A stretch of 64,000 nt of DNA from a virus (taxonomy: Duplodnaviria; Caudoviricetes), in IMG/VR virus record IMGVR_UViG_3300013947_000022, positions 96,001-160,000 of that record, one strand, 5' to 3'. The notes under the pieces were generated by a model that searched no databases, had not been told where the DNA came from, and saw nothing but the letters and a program-made list of their open reading frames with translations. The position numbers and the translations under genes were made by a program. This document shows positions 9,615 through 14,974 of this stretch, piece after piece. The stretch's first letter is position 1, and each line of letters starts with the position of its first letter.

Positions 9615-9736
9615 GCGCCTGTAACTCAGTGGTAGAGTAGCGGCCTTGGATAATAGCGTTTAGGCTTTAGCAAGTGCGAGACTTGCATTATCCCTTAAGC
9701 CGTCTGTCATGGGTTCGAATCCCATCAGGCGCACCA
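9615..9736 (+). tRNA. tRNA-Lys(TTT, or CTT in an alternative register) interrupted in the anticodon loop by a mini-tRNA (9648-9694)
   Basis: GCGCCTG/CAGGCGC acceptor, GCGGC/GCCGT anticodon stem, TTCGAAT, ACCA; removing the insert gives loop CT-TTT-AA. Confidence 0.85.
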
Positions 9737-9762
9737 ATAGTAGTTTTGTAATTTTGGTCTAT

Positions 9763-9825
9763 TCGACACTCACAGTAATTTTTAACACATATAATTGGAT
9801 TTGTATTTGTAAAAATAGTGTCGAG
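9763..9825 (+). ncRNA. Y-RNA-like ncRNA 2 (short)
   Basis: TCGACAC/GTGTCGA stem, ACAGTAA variant. Confidence 0.65.
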
Positions 9826-9853
9826 TATAATTAACAAAGAAAGGACAACAACT

Positions 9854-10504
9854 ATGTTAAAGCCAGAAGAAAAAATCATTCTTGACCTTTGTGGCGGTAC
9901 TGGTTCATGGTCTCGTCCTTGGCAGTTAAATGGGTATGATGTTCGTATCATTACTCTTCCTGAATATGATGTAAGGACTTTTAATCCTCCTGAGAATGTT
10001 TGGGGCATTCTTGCTGCTCCACCTTGCACAGAATTTAGCAATCTAAACTGTATCGCTGAGAATCGTCATCGTGACTTTGATGCTGGTATGGAAATTGTTA
10101 ATGCGTGTTTGCGTATTATCAAAGAGTGTAATCCTGTTTGGTGGGCTTTGGAAAACCCTCGTGGACATTTGCGTGATTTCCTCGGAACTCCTACTATGAC
10201 TTTCCAGCCTTGGGAATATGGAGACCCTTGGACTAAGGCTACGGATATTTGGGGTACTTTTAATATTCCTCCAAAAAAGTATTCTCGTTGGGAAGATGTG
10301 CCTAATAAGATTCCTCTGTATACTCGCAAGGGTAGAAACAAGCCCAATTTTGCTTTTCTTCATAAGTCTGCTTGGAAGAATATTCCTCAACTTAGTTGGC
10401 ATCATCAACCTGAAACAGATGCGGAATTTAGAGCAATGACTCCTCCTGCATTTGCATGGGCATTCTATGAAGCTAATAAACTGAAAGTTTATGAGGGTAA
10501 TTAA
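9854..10504 (+). CDS. short C5-cytosine DNA methyltransferase-like protein
   Basis: LDLCGGTG, AAPPCTEFS, WALENP motifs. Confidence 0.8.
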   Translation: MLKPEEKIILDLCGGTGSWSRPWQLNGYDVRIITLPEYDVRTFNPPENVWGILAAPPCTEFSNLNCIAENRHRDFDAGMEIVNACLRIIKECNPVWWALENPRGHLRDFLGTPTMTFQPWEYGDPWTKATDIWGTFNIPPKKYSRWEDVPNKIPLYTRKGRNKPNFAFLHKSAWKNIPQLSWHHQPETDAEFRAMTPPAFAWAFYEANKLKVYEGN

Positions 10505-10753
10505 ATGACAACCGAAGAAAAGTTGCGAGAGTATGCTGATTATTATATCACTCTTTCTCCAATTAAAAAGGTGCGATTTTTAGAAAAGAATTTTAATCTT
10601 GGTAAGTTAAAATGGTATCAACGTATTTGTCTTACAATTGAGTTTGCGATTGGTGACTTGAAAGATAAGACAAAAAATATTTTCAAAAAAGTTTAAAAAA
10701 CACTTGACAAACAAAACAAAGTGTGCTATACTTAGTACACAATCAAGGAAGAC

Positions 10754-11320
10754 GAATGGTTGGTGAGTCTCAAAACAACCCAACTACCAAATGATAATAA
10801 GTGCGTGAGCTTAAATGCTAACGAACGTAATGAAGAAGCGACCTCGACCTCATATATCGTATATATATGTTGTAAATTACAAGAGTGAGTCAAGCAGTAA
10901 TTACAGGAGACATTTAAGTAAGGATTAATCGCAGTCCTGCTTGTTATCATTACCATAGTCTTGGTGATAGACTATCAAAACATCACTCCCCCAACTCCCG
11001 TCCGAAGTCTTGGAGTAGAACGCAAGCGATGGGCGTTCGAAGCAGAAAATGAAAGGGAAGAACACGATATATAGTGAGATAACCTATCGGGGTGCTAATG
11101 TGATAGGAAGTCTAAGTTCGGGAAAATCGTGAGTGGAAATTCCACGAGGTAAGCGTAGCGAACTTACCTAAACAGCTTCTTAATTACTACGGTAATTAAG
11201 CATAACTCATACTACGGTTAGACTGTATGAGAATCCTACTCAATGAGAAGCTGAGAGGATTAAGGTGACTAACCCTCCGAATGGTTGGTGAAGAGAAAGT
11301 TCAATCCAACTACCAGATTC
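10754..11320 (+). ncRNA. large pseudoknotted ncRNA (~570 nt), ROOL/GOLLD-class candidate
   Basis: No credible ORF; promoter at 10704/10727; about ten hairpins and several loop-to-strand pairings; within tRNA cluster. Confidence 0.65.
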
Positions 11321-11344
11321 TTTTACAAGGATTCATATACTCCT

Positions 11345-11475
11345 TCGACACTTACAGCAATTTTTACAAATGATATTTTTGAAATAACAATTGTAGAGTT
11401 CAATTCTCTATATAGCAACTCCTTACAGTCAGAGAGGAAACGCTATAGTCTGGTAGACCTGAAAAATGTGTCGAG
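11345..11475 (+). ncRNA. Y-RNA-like ncRNA 3 with permuted tRNA-like domain
   Basis: TCGACAC/GTGTCGA + ACAGCAA; T arm TAGAG-TTCAATT-CTCTA, acceptor TATAGC/GCTATA closed by a hairpin, D arm GTC-TGGTA-GAC. Confidence 0.78.
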
Positions 11476-11850
11476 TTTCTGACAATATGCCTTTTGTAGT
11501 ATAATGGCAGGAAAGTTTCTTCTCTCTTCCCTTAAAAGAGAAGTGGAGGGTGGGTGTCTTCGGATTCCCCTTACACGAATGGTTGGTGAGTGTTTAAATA
11601 ACCCAGCTACCATTAAATCCGTATGAGGTAACATAACAAGGGTTCTCATTAAAACTTGGAACTGTCCCGTCACCTTGTTTGTATAAGGGAATGAGTCAAG
11701 AGGTTATAGTTTACGGTCTATAACATTAAAGTTTAGCAATGAAAATGACCGAGATAATTGTGTGTAAGTCTGAAATAATGACTCTCCCCCAATCGAACCG
11801 AGGGCAGATATGTGTAAAGCTGGTCTGTCAGTAGTTGCTAAACTGAATAT

Positions 11851-12002
11851 GCAGGTATGGTGGAATTGGTAGACACAGCAGACTCCTTGGTATAGCATAA
11901 GTAATGCGCTCTTTTGAGAGATAAAAGTTCAAATCTTTTTATCAGGTCCAAAAATCTGCCGCTGAAATATGCGTGGGGGTTCGAGTCCCCCTACCTGTAC
12001 CA
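11851..12002 (+). tRNA. tRNA-Leu(CAA) interrupted by a 65-nt CCA-ending tRNA-like insert (11886-11950)
   Basis: Leu-type D loop GAATTGGTAGA, long variable arm, GCAGA/TCTGC stem, ACCA; excision gives CT-CAA-AA. Confidence 0.87.
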
Positions 12003-12042
12003 TATTTATTTAATAGTCAAAAATACGTTCATTTAAGAACGT

Positions 12043-13539: not shown

Positions 13540-13560
13540 TAAAAACGGAGTTTTATTCTG

Positions 13561-13869
13561 ATGTTTGATTTTAAGAATCCCAAGCCAACAGTCTTTTGTA
13601 TTCATTGTAATAAGATGGTTGGTTATGATACAGATGTAGCAAAAGTTAATCTTACTATTCGAGGAGTTAATTTTTCCTATGATGAAAAGATTGCCTTTTG
13701 TGAAGAGTGCGGTGACGAAGTTTATGTTGCTGCATACAATGATATGAATGTCGATGCTCGTGAAAAAGCTTATAAGAATGAGCTTGAGCGTCGCAAAATT
13801 ACGCAGGAAATTTACGGAATTTCCTCAAAAAATTCTGAAAATTCTCTTGACAAAACAGAAGACCTGTGA
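13561..13869 (+). CDS. zinc-finger protein (MqsA N-terminal/YgiT-like)
   Basis: CIHC...IRG..FSY...CEECGDEVY. Confidence 0.65.
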   Translation: MFDFKNPKPTVFCIHCNKMVGYDTDVAKVNLTIRGVNFSYDEKIAFCEECGDEVYVAAYNDMNVDAREKAYKNELERRKITQEIYGISSKNSENSLDKTEDL

Positions 13870-13886
13870 TATAATTAAGTCACAAT

Positions 13887-14065
13887 CAAGAGAGAGAAGT
13901 TGCTCCCAAATGGTGTATTTAATAATCTTGTTGCTTTTTGTGGTGTTCTTCTAATTGTGTTGATTCTCAACTTTGTTCGTTTTCGTTTTAGTCTCCTTTC
14001 TTTATTTTGATAGGACCTCCTTTGTTTTGTGTAATGAATTGACGGTTGAGCACTTCTCTCTCTTG
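13887..14065 (+). ncRNA. candidate sRNA with anti-SD motifs
   Basis: Follows promoter 13847/13870; ends pair over about 19 bp; U-rich interior with CTCCTT twice. Confidence 0.6.
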
Positions 14066-14148
14066 TTTGAGAAAAAATAAAGTCTAAAAAAGACTTGACA
14101 AATTACAAAATGTGTGCTATAATTGGTACATAAACAAAAACTTTAAAT

Positions 14149-14222
14149 GCAGTAGTGTGGGAACGCTTACCCAGCCTACGCACCGAACGTAGGAGGTGCC
14201 AGTTGGAATCTGGTCTACTGCT
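14149..14222 (+). tRNA. atypical tRNA-Arg(CCG)-like
   Basis: GCAGTAG/CTACTGC acceptor, TGGG/CCCA D stem, CCTACG-CACCGAA-CGTAGG, T-loop TTGGAAT; no CCA. Confidence 0.7.
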
Positions 14223-14230
14223 ATAAAACC

Positions 14231-14349
14231 AAGAACTTCGTGGTAGTAAAACACGATAAATAAATTAAACTGCCTCCTGTCGGTCAACCTCTTCGGAGGG
14301 TATGTTGGAGTTGTTGGGTGAGGAATCGAAAGTCCCAACCGAAGTTCTT
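14231..14349 (+). ncRNA. unassigned structured RNA
   Basis: AAGAACTTCG/CGAAGTTCTT closing stem with three internal hairpins including a cUUCGg tetraloop. Confidence 0.55.
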
Positions 14350-14381
14350 GTTTTTCTTAAAACTTAAAAAGGAATTAATCA

Positions 14382-14800
14382 ATGTAGACGAAAATTTGTT
14401 CTTAATGCAAAATTGAACAACCAATCGAAAATTTTGGCTGGCGCAATAAAGAAAAACAATAGAGAAACGCTTATTGTAAAAGCTGTCACTTAAAAAAAGT
14501 TAAAGAAAATTATAACAAAAAGTGGCAAAAATAAATGAAATTAAATCTCATCTTTGCTGTGAGAAATGTGGTGAAACCAGACCTTATGTTTTAGATTTTC
14601 ATCATAAAAATCCCAGTGAAAAAAAGGATGCGGTAGCAAGAATGATAACAAATACTTCTAACATAAACAGTGTTTTAGAAGAAATAGCTAAATGTGCAGT
14701 ATTATGTGCTAATTGCCATCGAGAATTTCATTATTTGCAAAAACAAAATCCTGATTTTACTTTAGATGAATATTTATATGGTTGTGTAGCCAAGCGGTAA
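14382..14800 (+). pseudogene. degenerate HNH endonuclease
   Basis: M(TAG)TKICS(TAA)CK...CKSC, frameshift near 14520, then CEKCGE...LDFHH...LCANCHREFH; 3' end overlaps tRNA-Gln. Confidence 0.72.
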
Positions 14801-14974
14801 GGCAACGGGCTTTCTCAGAATCAGTTAAATGGGTTATATGATGTGATGGGGTTAAGTAGCATTGTATAAGTTCTGTTAGTAGGCTATCGGACGGTTAATC
14901 CGACAATGCAAGTGCAAGTCTTGCTTTTGGGGCCAGACCCCGTGATTTCGCAGGTTCGAGTCCTGCCACAACTG
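14780..14974 (+). tRNA. tRNA-Gln(TTG) interrupted by a 122-nt CCA-ending tRNA-like insert (14814-14935)
   Basis: Gln-type GCC-AAGCGGTAA-GGC D arm, ACGGG/CCCGT stem, G73; excision gives CT-TTG-AC. Confidence 0.85.

What the first reader, a model, noticed from the sequence alone, without database searches (positions are those of the whole stretch)
9615..14974. Nested tRNAs: tRNA-shaped inserts inside the anticodon loops of three tRNA genes
Seen: tRNA-Lys (9615), tRNA-Leu (11851) and tRNA-Gln (14780) have intact bodies, but each anticodon is split by an insert (47, 65 and 122 nt). Each insert folds as a tRNA with a 7-bp acceptor stem starting at its first base, a T arm and a discriminator; two end in CCA. 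Removing exactly +1 to discriminator/CCA restores a 7-nt loop whose anticodon fits the tRNA body (UUU, CAA, UUG). The inserts differ in sequence, so the shape appears to be what is conserved. They are too short for group I/II introns and are not BHB motifs. Known: RNase P cuts 5' of +1 and RNase Z-type enzymes cut after the discriminator or CCA, both leaving 3'-OH/5'-P ends. Inference: host tRNA maturases could excise the inner tRNA, leaving halves ready for an Rnl1/Rnl2-type ligase. That would be a new kind of tRNA intron, possibly hiding anticodons from nucleases or releasing decoys. I do not recall it being described.
Basis: partly seen in the sequence, partly recalled or inferred. Interest (0 to 1): 0.96.

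Follow-up and report, generated by a model that had tools for sequence, protein, structure and literature searches.

The report
tRNA-shaped introns in phage tRNAs
Three tRNA genes of a 215-kb gut phage are each split inside the anticodon by a small insert that is itself shaped like a tRNA from its first base to its CCA tail. This rarely noted and unexplained kind of intron is probably cut out by ordinary tRNA-trimming enzymes and resealed by the phage's RNA ligase.

Summary
tRNA-Lys(UUU), tRNA-Leu(CAA) and tRNA-Gln(UUG) carry inserts of 47, 65 and 122 nt at 9648-9694, 11886-11950 and 14814-14935.

Each insert starts with a 7-bp acceptor stem, has a T arm directly abutting that stem, and ends at the discriminator (Lys) or at NCCA (Leu, Gln). 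Removing it leaves a 7-nt loop with U33, A37 and the anticodon that fits the tRNA body.

About 13 insert/tRNA combinations occur in relatives, in Lys, Leu, Gln, Glu, Ile, Gly and Thr, at sites 32/33 to 36/37. All follow the same rule.
- Inner stems covary: 249 of 252 cells are paired.
- Outer stems show compensatory changes while the inserts are in place.
- One interrupted Gln gene minus its insert is 75/75 identical to an intact allele.

The phage encodes a Pnkp-type kinase next to an Rnl1-family ligase. It has no splicing endonuclease and no RtcB. The inserts match no ribozyme family.

No RNA evidence of splicing was obtained, so the RNase P, RNase Z-type cut and Rnl1 route remains an inference (about 0.5).

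The class is not unreported. Devoto et al. 2019 called such Lak-phage introns 'enigmatic', a 2026 jumbo-phage survey repeats the remark, and this scan met the class before in other phages. No mechanism has been shown.

The parts
9615..9647 (+). tRNA-Lys(UUU) 5' exon: acceptor, D arm, 5' anticodon stem GCGGC, loop CTT
   Evidence: Rfam tRNA 60.4 bits across 9615-9733; ARAGORN -i; boundary solution
9648..9694 (+). 47-nt tRNA-shaped insert: acceptor GGATAAT/ATTATCC, T arm GCAAG-TGCGAGA-CTTGC, discriminator C, no CCA. It sits between anticodon-loop nt 34 and 35.
   Evidence: The MFE fold gives the 7-bp closing stem, z = -2.69. The insert is identical in L003.
9695..9736 (+). tRNA-Lys 3' exon: TTAA, 3' anticodon stem, T arm, acceptor, encoded CCA
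   Evidence: The joined anticodon arm equals that of the intact tRNA-Lys of L057.
11851..11885 (+). tRNA-Leu(CAA) 5' exon (class II tRNA), loop CTC
   Evidence: ARAGORN -i; boundary solution
11886..11950 (+). 65-nt tRNA-shaped insert: acceptor CTTGGTA/TATCAGG, U8-A9, D-like hairpin GCAT-AAGTA-ATGC, mini arm CTCT-TTTG-AGAG, T arm AAAAG-TTCAAAT-CTTTT, TCCA tail. Site 34/35.
   Evidence: Rfam tRNA model full length, 38.2 bits at 11886-11947. The MFE fold is a cloverleaf. The T stem covaries with L004.
11951..12002 (+). tRNA-Leu 3' exon: AAAA, 3' anticodon stem, long variable arm, T arm, acceptor, CCA
14780..14813 (+). tRNA-Gln(UUG) 5' exon, loop CTTT
   Evidence: Rfam tRNA 42.9 bits across 14780-14974
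14814..14935 (+). 122-nt tRNA-shaped insert: acceptor CTCAGAA/TTTTGGG (2 G.U pairs; perfect Watson-Crick in L004), two internal hairpins, T arm GCAAG-TGCAAGT-CTTGC, GCCA tail. Site 35/36.
   Evidence: The fold constrained to the tRNA-like shape is -26.3 kcal/mol against an MFE of -26.6. Homologues of 120 and 121 nt occur in L004 and L005.
14936..14974 (+). tRNA-Gln 3' exon: GAC, 3' anticodon stem, T arm, acceptor, discriminator G; no encoded CCA
14522..14800 (+). 92-aa HNH-like ORF ending inside the 5' end of tRNA-Gln. It is a possible free-standing homing endonuclease, and its association with the insert is uncertain.
   Evidence: Pfam HNH at only 16.4 bits, below the cut-off. A relative in run X26 lacks 14356-14780 but keeps the interrupted tRNA-Gln (joint 14355>14781).

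Best explanation
The three inserts are introns of a tRNA-shaped class. Each is a miniature, anticodon-less tRNA: a 7-bp acceptor stem, often U8-A9 and a short D-like hairpin, a variable middle, a T arm with G53-C61, U54 and A58, a discriminator and usually CCA. It lies inside the anticodon loop of a normal phage tRNA.

Proposed route:
1. The outer and inner cloverleaves fold independently.
2. Host RNase P cuts 5' of inner +1. This leaves the 5' exon with a 3'-OH.
3. An RNase Z-type endonuclease (or another enzyme that makes mature tRNA 3' ends) cuts after the discriminator, or after CCA where CCA is present. This leaves the 3' exon with a 5'-phosphate.
4. The exon halves stay held together by the outer acceptor, D, T and anticodon stems.
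5. The phage Rnl1-family ligase seals the nick in the anticodon loop, as T4 Rnl1 does for broken tRNA-Lys. The adjacent Pnkp-type kinase/HD enzyme could heal the ends if needed.

Shown here: the anatomy, the exact borders, covariation, selection on the outer tRNAs, presence/absence alleles, and the presence of the ligase and kinase genes.

Inferred: every enzymatic step.
For: 1. Borders. In all ~13 insert/tRNA combinations the insert runs from the first acceptor base to N73 or N73-CCA. Its removal leaves a 7-nt loop with U33, A37 and an anticodon matching the tRNA body. Tails in 21 distinct sequences: NCCA 18, N alone 2, NCA 1.

2. The shape is what is conserved. 249 of 252 stem cells are paired, with 3-6 pair types at 11 of 12 positions. 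G53-C61 is invariant and the T loop reads T-[T/G]-[C/T]-R-A. Swapping 3' strands between inserts gives 52% pairing (maximum 71% in 1000 permutations). The Rfam tRNA model scores inner elements above gathering: 38.2, 41 and 30.4 bits.

3. The outer tRNAs stay under selection with the insert in place:
- Window against L004 Leu: two compensatory double changes in the anticodon stem and one in the T stem.
- Gln: one in the anticodon stem.
- Lys against L003: one in the D stem.
There is no spare intact copy of these tRNAs in the genome.

4. Precise with/without alleles. L055 tRNA-Gln minus its 85-nt insert is 75/75 identical to the intact L066 tRNA-Gln. The intact L057 tRNA-Lys has the same anticodon arm as the joined window exons. 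There is no target-site duplication.

5. Enzymes.
- Rnl1-family ligase: PF09511, 45.6 bits, motifs K148MDG, E284GWV and K301IK.
- Directly downstream of a kinase whose best solved relative is the C. thermocellum Pnkp kinase domain.
- The ligase is present in all 7 complete insert-bearing genomes and absent from the one complete relative with only intact tRNAs.
- No RtcB, no splicing endonuclease and no ribozyme family in the inserts.

6. The base before every insert is a pyrimidine (12/12; about 0.02 by chance from the loop compositions, my calculation on the data). From my own knowledge, not checked here, this fits the preference of bacterial RNase P for U/C at -1.

7. Endonucleolytic cuts just after CCA have precedent: T. 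maritima RNase Z, and in some cases RNase E, as reviewed in PMC7479834.
Against: - No RNA-level evidence exists.
- CCA is an anti-determinant for most RNase Z enzymes. Bacteria usually trim CCA-encoding precursors with exonucleases, which would destroy the 3' exon. The host and its enzymes are unknown.
- Two members fit poorly. Gly-92 ends in ACA, and Leu-71 of L004 has two U.U mismatches in the acceptor stem and has lost CCA.
- The ligase sits with an end-healing kinase. This is the signature of the classic anticodon-nuclease repair system, so its presence is not specific to splicing.
- The ligase/insert correlation rests on one phylogenetic contrast.
- The inner D loops lack G18G19 and several T loops have G55. 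The inner elements may therefore be weak RNase P or RNase Z substrates.
Confidence: 0.5

Rival explanations
1. The inserts are real introns removed precisely, but by another nuclease. Candidates are a phage enzyme such as the beta-CASP ribonuclease, or an unknown endonuclease, possibly one that leaves 2',3'-cyclic phosphate and 5'-OH ends. The Pnkp-type kinase/HD enzyme would heal those ends and Rnl1 would seal them. On this view the tRNA shape serves stability, mobility or a second function of the released RNA, not recognition by RNase P and RNase Z.
For: - A kinase/HD end-healing gene lies directly upstream of the ligase. It is not needed for RNase P and RNase Z products.
- The phage encodes a 481-aa beta-CASP RNase.
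- Cutting after CCA is atypical for RNase Z, and the ACA tail of Gly-92 does not fit.
Against: - The borders coincide with mature tRNA ends in every member, and only the parts that RNase P and RNase Z read (acceptor stem, T arm, tail) are conserved.
- The beta-CASP gene is also present in the relative without inserts.
- No splicing endonuclease is present.
Confidence: 0.2
2. The inner RNA is the product. The outer tRNA acts as a carrier or processing scaffold, or is sacrificed. RNase P and 3' processing release a small CCA-ended tRNA mimic, for example a decoy for a host tRNA-targeting defence or a substrate of some tRNA-binding enzyme, and the halves are not rejoined. Alternatively the chimera works uncut.
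For: - The inner elements are well conserved. The Lys insert is 47/47 identical between the window and L003 while the exons differ at 5 positions.
- The elements have no anticodon (GNRA-type or 4-5-nt loops).
- They occur nowhere else in the genome as free genes.
Against: - The residual loops are always exactly 7 nt with the right anticodon, at four different insertion sites.
- The outer stems evolve by compensatory change.
- The interrupted genes are the only copies of those tRNAs in a phage that keeps very few tRNAs.
- A release function and splicing are not mutually exclusive.
Confidence: 0.15
3. The inserts are selfish DNA (or retro-inserted mature tRNA-like RNAs) that simply broke the tRNA genes. 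The intact-looking exons are recent wreckage and nothing is spliced.
For: - Presence and absence form a mosaic among near-identical phages.
- Different inserts sit at different sites of the same tRNA species: Lys 34/35 against 35/36, Ile 32/33 against 36/37.
- The anticodon stem of Gly in L005 is wholly replaced while the rest of the tRNA is identical to the window's. This looks like co-conversion.
- A reverse transcriptase gene is present in the genome.
Against: - Homologous inserts persist across diverged alleles while the outer stems change only by compensatory substitutions.
- There is no target-site duplication and no terminal repeat beyond the acceptor stem.
- Three of the seven tRNAs of this phage, and up to six in relatives, would be dead, with no spare copies.
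Confidence: 0.1

Closest known systems
'Enigmatic' introns in tRNAs of Lak megaphages (Devoto et al. 2019, PMC6784885, Fig. 4). Remark repeated for recoded jumbo phages in PMC13037316 (2026).
   Same: These are phage tRNA genes interrupted in the anticodon region by short non-ribozyme inserts, one of which 'itself may encode a tRNA'. Alleles with and without the intron exist, and the intron sequence is near-identical across genomes. The phages are TAG-recoded gut phages.
   Different: Those papers give no rule and no mechanism. The following are worked out here and not there: the rule from +1 to N73/CCA, the range of sites (32/33 to 36/37), covariation, the lack of an anticodon, selection on the outer tRNA, and the link to a Pnkp/Rnl1 gene pair. 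This phage is about 215 kb, not a 540-kb Lak phage. I did not compare sequences with the Lak introns.
Group I introns in bacterial and phage tRNA anticodon loops
   Same: They occupy the same place in the gene, show presence/absence polymorphism, and excise precisely to restore a 7-nt loop. One sits in this same window, in the amber suppressor tRNA (15786-16004, Rfam RF00028 at 34.8 bits; intronless allele in L003).
   Different: The inserts are 47-122 nt with no ribozyme core and no Rfam intron match. They cannot self-splice by the group I route.
Archaeal and eukaryal tRNA introns (bulge-helix-bulge motif, splicing endonuclease, RtcB or Trl1 ligase)
   Same: These are protein-dependent cut-and-ligate splicing of short introns in or near the anticodon loop.
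   Different: There is no BHB here. The two junctions flank a 7-bp helix, not a 4-bp helix between two 3-nt bulges. The phage has no splicing endonuclease and no RtcB. The expected ends are 3'-OH/5'-P rather than 2',3'>P/5'-OH.
tRNA-like processing signals: the mitochondrial 'tRNA punctuation' model, plant mitochondrial t-elements, MALAT1 mascRNA (established knowledge, not tested here)
   Same: A tRNA or tRNA-like fold embedded in a longer transcript is recognised by RNase P and RNase Z. Their cuts define the ends of the flanking RNAs.
   Different: In those cases the flanks are separate RNAs that are never rejoined. Here the flanks are two halves of one tRNA and must be religated.
Phage T4 Pnkp + Rnl1 repair of anticodon-nuclease-cleaved tRNA-Lys (established knowledge)
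   Same: An adjacent kinase and Rnl1-family ligase gene pair is present. The ligation substrate would be a nick in a tRNA anticodon loop held together by the tRNA body.
   Different: In T4 the break is made by a host defence nuclease (PrrC) and no sequence is removed. The phosphatase module here is an HD domain, not the T4 type.

Membership tests
tRNA-shaped ('enigmatic') phage tRNA introns (Devoto 2019) | Short insert in the anticodon loop of a phage tRNA gene whose removal restores a canonical tRNA | tested here: met
   unique solutions with a 7-nt loop, U33, A37 and an anticodon that fits the body
tRNA-shaped ('enigmatic') phage tRNA introns (Devoto 2019) | The insert is itself predicted as a tRNA or tRNA-like fold | tested here: met
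   Rfam tRNA hits on inner elements at 38.2, 41 and 30.4 bits; 7-bp acceptor stem plus T arm in all members
tRNA-shaped ('enigmatic') phage tRNA introns (Devoto 2019) | Alleles with and without the insert in related phages; insert sequence highly conserved | tested here: met
   (75/75 identity for Gln after removal; the Lys insert is 47/47 identical in L003)
tRNA-shaped ('enigmatic') phage tRNA introns (Devoto 2019) | Sequence homology to the Lak-phage introns | not tested
   Lak sequences were not fetched
Group I intron | Conserved catalytic core (P3-P8), U at -1, terminal G | tested here: not met
   No RF00028 match on the inserts at E<=5, while the suppressor-tRNA intron in the same stretch is found. 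At 47-122 nt the inserts are too short.
BHB intron (archaeal/eukaryal) | Two 3-nt bulges holding the splice sites, separated by a 4-bp helix; a splicing endonuclease is available | tested here: not met
   The junctions flank a 7-bp helix inside an asymmetric internal loop. PF01974 is absent from the phage.
MITE or DNA transposon | Target-site duplication and terminal inverted repeats recognised by a transposase | tested here: not met
   The empty site equals the exons joined with no duplication. The only terminal repeat is the covarying acceptor stem, which differs in sequence in every member.
RNase P / RNase Z substrate (tRNA-like processing element) | 7-bp acceptor stem coaxial with a T arm bearing a T-loop motif; single-stranded 5' leader; discriminator with or without CCA | tested here: met
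   G53-C61 invariant, U54 and A58 conserved, pyrimidine at -1 in 12/12
RNase P / RNase Z substrate (tRNA-like processing element) | Actual cleavage at +1 and after N73/CCA | not testable with these tools
   Needs an enzyme assay or tRNA-seq. The read-laying run gave no junctions.
T4-type Pnkp/Rnl1 RNA repair pair | Rnl1-family adenylyltransferase with motifs I, IV and V, next to a polynucleotide kinase | tested here: met
   PF09511 at 45.6 bits; K148MDG, E284GWV, K301IK; upstream AAA_33 kinase most like the CthPnkp kinase domain, plus an HD domain

The most novel reading that the evidence does not exclude
These inserts define a third route of tRNA splicing, besides self-splicing group I introns and BHB/endonuclease splicing. 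In it the intron is a tRNA mimic that borrows the universal tRNA end-processing enzymes (RNase P at its 5' end, an RNase Z-type cut at its 3' end) for excision. A phage Rnl1 'repair' ligase then acts as the splicing ligase. Maturation of several phage tRNAs would thus depend on a phage-encoded enzyme. The elements spread among tRNA genes as mobile units.
Probability: 0.45. Interest if true: 0.9.

Novelty: new member of a known kind. Interest (0 to 1): 0.78.

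Why it matters
Bacterial and phage tRNA introns are textbook group I ribozymes, and protein-dependent tRNA splicing is considered an archaeal and eukaryal trait.

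A family of introns excised by RNase P and a 3' tRNase and sealed by Rnl1 would have three consequences:
- It would add a new splicing mechanism.
- It would give the widespread phage Pnkp/Rnl1 genes a role beyond repair of nuclease damage.
- It would explain why tRNA predictions for large recoded gut phages miss many genes. Here 4 of the 7 tRNAs are invisible to default ARAGORN: three carry tRNA-shaped inserts and one carries a group I intron.

The rules derived here make the idea directly testable with three enzymes and a T7 transcript. The rules are: the insert runs from +1 to N73/CCA, a pyrimidine precedes it, the sites range from 32/33 to 36/37, and a 7-nt loop is restored.

Tried and rejected
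RNA evidence:
- Two run searches listed no strong RNA holder.
- Laying Logan contigs of three gut metatranscriptomes and one wastewater cDNA run gave no joint at 9647>9695, 11885>11951 or 14813>14936.
- Contigs of close relatives covered the unspliced Lys (9618-9736) and Leu (11868-12002) genes. DNA carry-over cannot be excluded, and 75-nt modified tRNAs rarely assemble.
- The joints near 11876-11884>11970-11974 carry other organisms' tRNA-Leu anticodon arms, not spliced product.
- This is neither evidence for nor against splicing.

Other searches that led nowhere:
- blastn of 9400-15600 against 50,697 GenBank phages gave no match.
- Literature searches for 'tRNA-like intron', 'nested tRNA' and similar terms found nothing relevant.
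- phmmer of the ligase against PDB sequences gave no hit.
- MAFFT could not align the inserts' 5' ends. Covariation was therefore counted by a script on structurally defined blocks rather than with a covariance model.

Thermodynamics alone is not convincing. Z-scores run from -0.3 to -2.9 and the Gln MFE is a different fold of equal energy.

Items rejected as members of the class:
- The 120-nt tRNA-like RNA that ARAGORN calls 'Ile gat i(38,23)' or 'Val cac i46'.
- The 'Thr tgt i85/i99' calls, which are Y-RNA-like modules.
- The L008, L026, L028 and L032 calls, which have poor stems.

The beta-CASP RNase was considered as an insert-specific enzyme and rejected. It is also present in the insert-free relative.

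Full report
WHAT IS THERE

The window is bases 96001-160000 of a 215,374-bp IMG/VR virus record that CheckV rates 99% complete. Default ARAGORN sees three tRNAs in the window. With introns allowed it adds three more, with introns of exactly 47, 65 and 122 nt.

The Rfam tRNA covariance model gives independent support:
- It matches the outer Lys gene (9615-9733, 60.4 bits, with a 49-nt insertion in the anticodon loop).
- It matches the outer Gln gene (14780-14974, 42.9 bits).
- For Leu it matches the inner insert itself, full length (11886-11947, 38.2 bits; gathering score 29).

ARAGORN places the introns at the eukaryotic position and therefore misnames the tRNAs Pro, Phe and Glu. I asked instead for a 5-bp outer anticodon stem and a 7-nt residual loop. 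That gives one canonical solution per gene:
- Lys: CTT|47|TTAA
- Leu: CTC|65|AAAA. This is the only reading compatible with its class II body.
- Gln: CTTT|122|GAC. Its D arm is the Gln-type GCCAAGCGGTAAGGC.

The inserts are 9648-9694, 11886-11950 and 14814-14935.

ANATOMY OF THE INSERTS

Each insert opens with a 7-bp stem formed by its first seven bases and the seven bases that precede its tail. A 5-bp stem with a 7-nt loop abuts the 3' strand of that stem, as a T arm abuts the acceptor stem in a tRNA. The tails are C (Lys), TCCA (Leu) and GCCA (Gln).

The Leu insert also has U8-A9, a 4-bp D-like hairpin and a small third arm closed by a 4-nt loop. It is a cloverleaf without an anticodon. The Gln insert carries two larger hairpins in the middle. 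Its tRNA-like fold (-26.3 kcal/mol) is as good as the unconstrained optimum (-26.6).

Folding energies alone are not impressive, with z from -0.3 to -2.9. The case rests on comparison with relatives.

IS IT MORE THAN CHANCE?

I shuffled each insert and searched +/-8 nt around both ends. The observed stem score is reached in 26 of 6600 trials.

A strict scan of the whole genome on both strands required a 7/7 acceptor stem, a 5/5 T stem, a T-loop of T..RA.. and an NCCA tail. It returns five places: tRNA-Gly, tRNA-Lys, tRNA-Ile, the Leu insert and the Gln insert. Shuffled genomes give 0-1. This also shows that the phage has no free-standing copy of such an element.

RELATIVES

A neighbouring methylase-like ORF (9854-10501) retrieved three near relatives, L003, L004 and L005, at 94-97% amino-acid identity and from one metagenome. 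A scan of IMG/VR for the shared T-arm word retrieved a second clade of 150-216-kb phages. Two of these (L066, L101) come from other samples.

Allowing introns, these loci contain many more cases. The distinct insert/tRNA combinations are:

| tRNA and insert length | Where | Site | Tail |
|---|---|---|---|
| Lys-47 | window, L003 | 34/35 | C |
| Lys-50 | L071 | 35/36 | CCCA |
| Ile-57 | L003, L005 | 32/33 | TCCA |
| Ile-57, a different insert | L004 18523-18579 | 36/37 | TCCA |
| Ile-59 | clade 2 | 36/37 | ACCA or CCCA |
| Glu-58 | L003, L005 | 36/37 | ACCA |
| Glu-66 | L071 | 36/37 | ACCA |
| Leu-65 | window | 34/35 | TCCA |
| Leu-71 | L004 | 34/35 | A |
| Gly-69 | L071 | 36/37 | TCCA |
| Gly-92 | L005 | 36/37 | ACA |
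| Gln-85 | L039, L055, L065 | 35/36 | ACCA |
| Gln-120/121/122 | L004, L005, window | 35/36 | NCCA |
| Thr-88 | L066 | 34/35 | CCCA |

In every one, removing the stretch from the first acceptor base to the end of the tail leaves a 7-nt loop with U33, A37 and the anticodon expected from the body. The Rfam model scores the interrupted outer genes at 40-56 bits and further inner elements at 30-41 bits.

COVARIATION

I counted pairs over 21 distinct insert sequences and 12 stem positions:
- 249 of 252 cells form a standard pair.
- 11 of the 12 positions show 3-6 different pair types.
- The twelfth position is the G53-C61 pair, which is invariant in real tRNAs.
- The T loop keeps T54, C/T56, R57 and A58.
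- Pairing each 5' acceptor strand with another insert's 3' strand gives 52% (maximum 71% in 1000 permutations) against 98% observed.

The acceptor sequences are all different, while internal modules can be identical. For example, the D hairpin and T arm of Ile-59 and Gly-92 are the same. The inserts are therefore one family, and the shape of the acceptor/T-arm half is what selection keeps.

THE INSERT IS REMOVED PRECISELY, AT LEAST IN EVOLUTION

Two comparisons fix the borders at the DNA level:
- L055 tRNA-Gln minus its 85-nt insert is 75/75 identical to the uninterrupted tRNA-Gln of L066. L039's copy is 74/75.
- The intact tRNA-Lys of L057 has the same anticodon arm as the joined window exons.

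There is no target-site duplication.

The four closest genomes carry a mosaic of interrupted genes:
- This genome: Lys, Leu and Gln interrupted; Gly and Ile intact.
- L003: Glu, Lys and Ile interrupted; Gln intact.
- L004: Leu, Gln and Ile interrupted; Lys intact.
- L005: Gly, Glu, Gln and Ile interrupted; Lys intact.

Different inserts occupy different sites of the same tRNA species, so insertions happened repeatedly.

In L005 the Gly gene is identical to the window's intact Gly except that all five anticodon-stem pairs are replaced. This looks like co-conversion of flanking exon sequence.

THE OUTER tRNAs ARE KEPT FUNCTIONAL

Between insert-bearing alleles the outer stems change by compensatory double substitutions:
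- Leu: anticodon stem GCAGA/TCTGC to AGAGA/TCTCT.
- Leu: T stem GGGGG/CCCCC to GCGGG/CCCGC.
- Gln: anticodon stem ACGGG/CCCGT to ACGGA/TCCGT.
- Lys: D stem ACTC/GAGT to GCTC/GAGC.

The inner T stem of Leu also covaries (AAAAG/CTTTT to AGAGG/CCTCT).

The genome has no second copy of these tRNAs. This argues that the RNA is spliced rather than left broken.

WHAT COULD DO IT

- The inserts match no ribozyme family at E<=5. The same search does find a classic group I intron in the amber suppressor tRNA 1 kb downstream.
- The phage has no splicing endonuclease, no RtcB and no CCA-adding enzyme.
- It has an Rnl1-family ligase (PF09511, 45.6 bits; K148MDG, E284GWV, K301IK) at genome 78117-79502.
- Immediately upstream, at 77155-78117, lies a 320-aa protein. 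Its N-terminal kinase is most like the kinase domain of Clostridium thermocellum Pnkp, and its C-terminal part has an HD signature.
- The ligase is present in all seven complete genomes with interrupted tRNAs and absent from the one complete relative (G004, 100 kb) whose four tRNAs are intact. That is a single contrast.
- A beta-CASP ribonuclease and a reverse transcriptase are also encoded. The former also occurs in G004.

MECHANISM

The borders are the two ends of a mature tRNA, and the conserved parts are the ones that RNase P and RNase Z read. RNase P leaves a 3'-OH on the leader, which here is the 5' exon. RNase Z-type enzymes leave a 5'-phosphate on the trailer, which here is the 3' exon. 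Those are the ends that an Rnl1-type ligase joins, and an anticodon-loop nick in an otherwise intact tRNA is the natural T4 Rnl1 substrate (established knowledge).

The base before the insert is a pyrimidine in 12 of 12 combinations (about 0.02 by chance given the loops). This is in line with the preference of bacterial RNase P.

The weak point is the 3' cut. CCA inhibits most RNase Z enzymes, and CCA-encoding precursors are usually trimmed by exonucleases. Cuts directly after CCA are, however, known for T. maritima RNase Z and sometimes RNase E (PMC7479834). Gly-92 (tail ACA) and Leu-71 (two U.U mismatches, no CCA) fit less well.

I put the RNase P + 3' tRNase + Rnl1 route at about 0.5, another nuclease with healing and sealing at 0.2, release of the inner RNA without rejoining at 0.15, and dead genes at 0.1.

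WHAT IS KNOWN

My own literature searches found nothing. Earlier notes of this scan pointed to Devoto et al. 2019. I read that paper. Lak megaphage tRNAs 'contain enigmatic introns', one tRNA-Thr intron 'itself may encode a tRNA', the introns are identical across cohorts, and alleles without them exist.

A 2026 survey states that 77% of recoded jumbo phages have tRNA introns and that these 'could encode another tRNA'. Neither paper gives rules or a mechanism.

The scan has met the same class in at least eight other phage genomes. I treat those notes as leads only.

The window therefore holds new members of a noted but unexplained class. The mechanism, if confirmed, would be new.

LIMITS

- There is no RNA evidence.
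- The host is unknown.
- All comparative data come from two related clades.
- The Lak introns were not compared at sequence level.

Noticed in passing
window 15750-16043 (intron 15786-16004): The amber suppressor tRNA(CUA) is interrupted between loop nt 35 and 36 by a 219-nt group I intron. It scores 34.8 bits against Rfam RF00028 (below gathering), has U at -1 and ends in G. L003 14656-14730 is the intronless allele. Default ARAGORN therefore reports no suppressor tRNA for this TAG-recoded phage.
   Followed up: partly
window 13027-13539: A 170-aa ORF (start MNKEIERKWLL) has one in-frame TAG, consistent with TAG read as an amino acid. Pfam gives no hit. Other first-stage notes on this genome claim TAG=Gln and also CGG=Gly.
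   Followed up: no
window 9760-9830, 11335-11480, 12040-12185, 14994-15060, 15450-15515, 15625-15715: There is a repeated module TCGAC(A/T/G)C..ACAGCAA ... G(T/A/C)GTCGAG whose two ends are complementary and covary (TCGACAC/GTGTCGA, TCGACTC/GAGTCGA, TCGACGC/GCGTCGA). At 12090-12161 it encloses a permuted tRNA-like unit (T arm, acceptor hairpin, D arm) that hits Rfam YrlA (Y RNA-like) at 28 bits, below gathering. Another first-stage note links these modules to a Ro60-like protein.
   Followed up: no
window 10700-11850 and 12170-12640: These are long ORF-free, GC-richer stretches with three copies of GAATGGTTGGTGA...CCA(A/G)CTACCA. Relatives' versions of 10692-11324 are the most deeply covered part in three gut metatranscriptome assemblies (word depth 20-60). 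This suggests an abundant structured RNA. Relatives carry Rfam RAGATH-33 (137-138 bits) at the corresponding place (L003 7587-7699), but the window does not match it.
   Followed up: no
window 14149-14222: ARAGORN calls this tRNA Arg(CCG). It has its own TTGACA/TATAAT promoter and no encoded CCA. Another first-stage note argues that it is Gly-like.
   Followed up: no
L003 9058-9177, L004 12727-12846, L005 12639-12758, L057 13339-13457 (-): This is a conserved ~120-nt tRNA-like RNA. It has an acceptor stem ending in TCCA, a D arm, a T arm and a long structured region in place of the anticodon arm. It does not follow the insert rule and no counterpart was seen in the window.
   Followed up: no
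genome G000:C1:25201-26644 and 207609-209330 (outside the window): The first is a 481-aa beta-CASP metallo-beta-lactamase ribonuclease (aCPSF1/Cas14-like). The second is a 573-aa reverse transcriptase ORF with three in-frame TAG codons. Their roles are unknown. The RT could matter for the gain or loss of the inserts.
   Followed up: partly
L005 7044-7211 against window 8099-8174: The interrupted tRNA-Gly of L005 equals the window's intact tRNA-Gly everywhere except that all five anticodon-stem pairs are exchanged (TCAGT/ACTGA against GGACT/AGTTC). This looks like co-conversion of exon sequence with the insert.
   Followed up: partly
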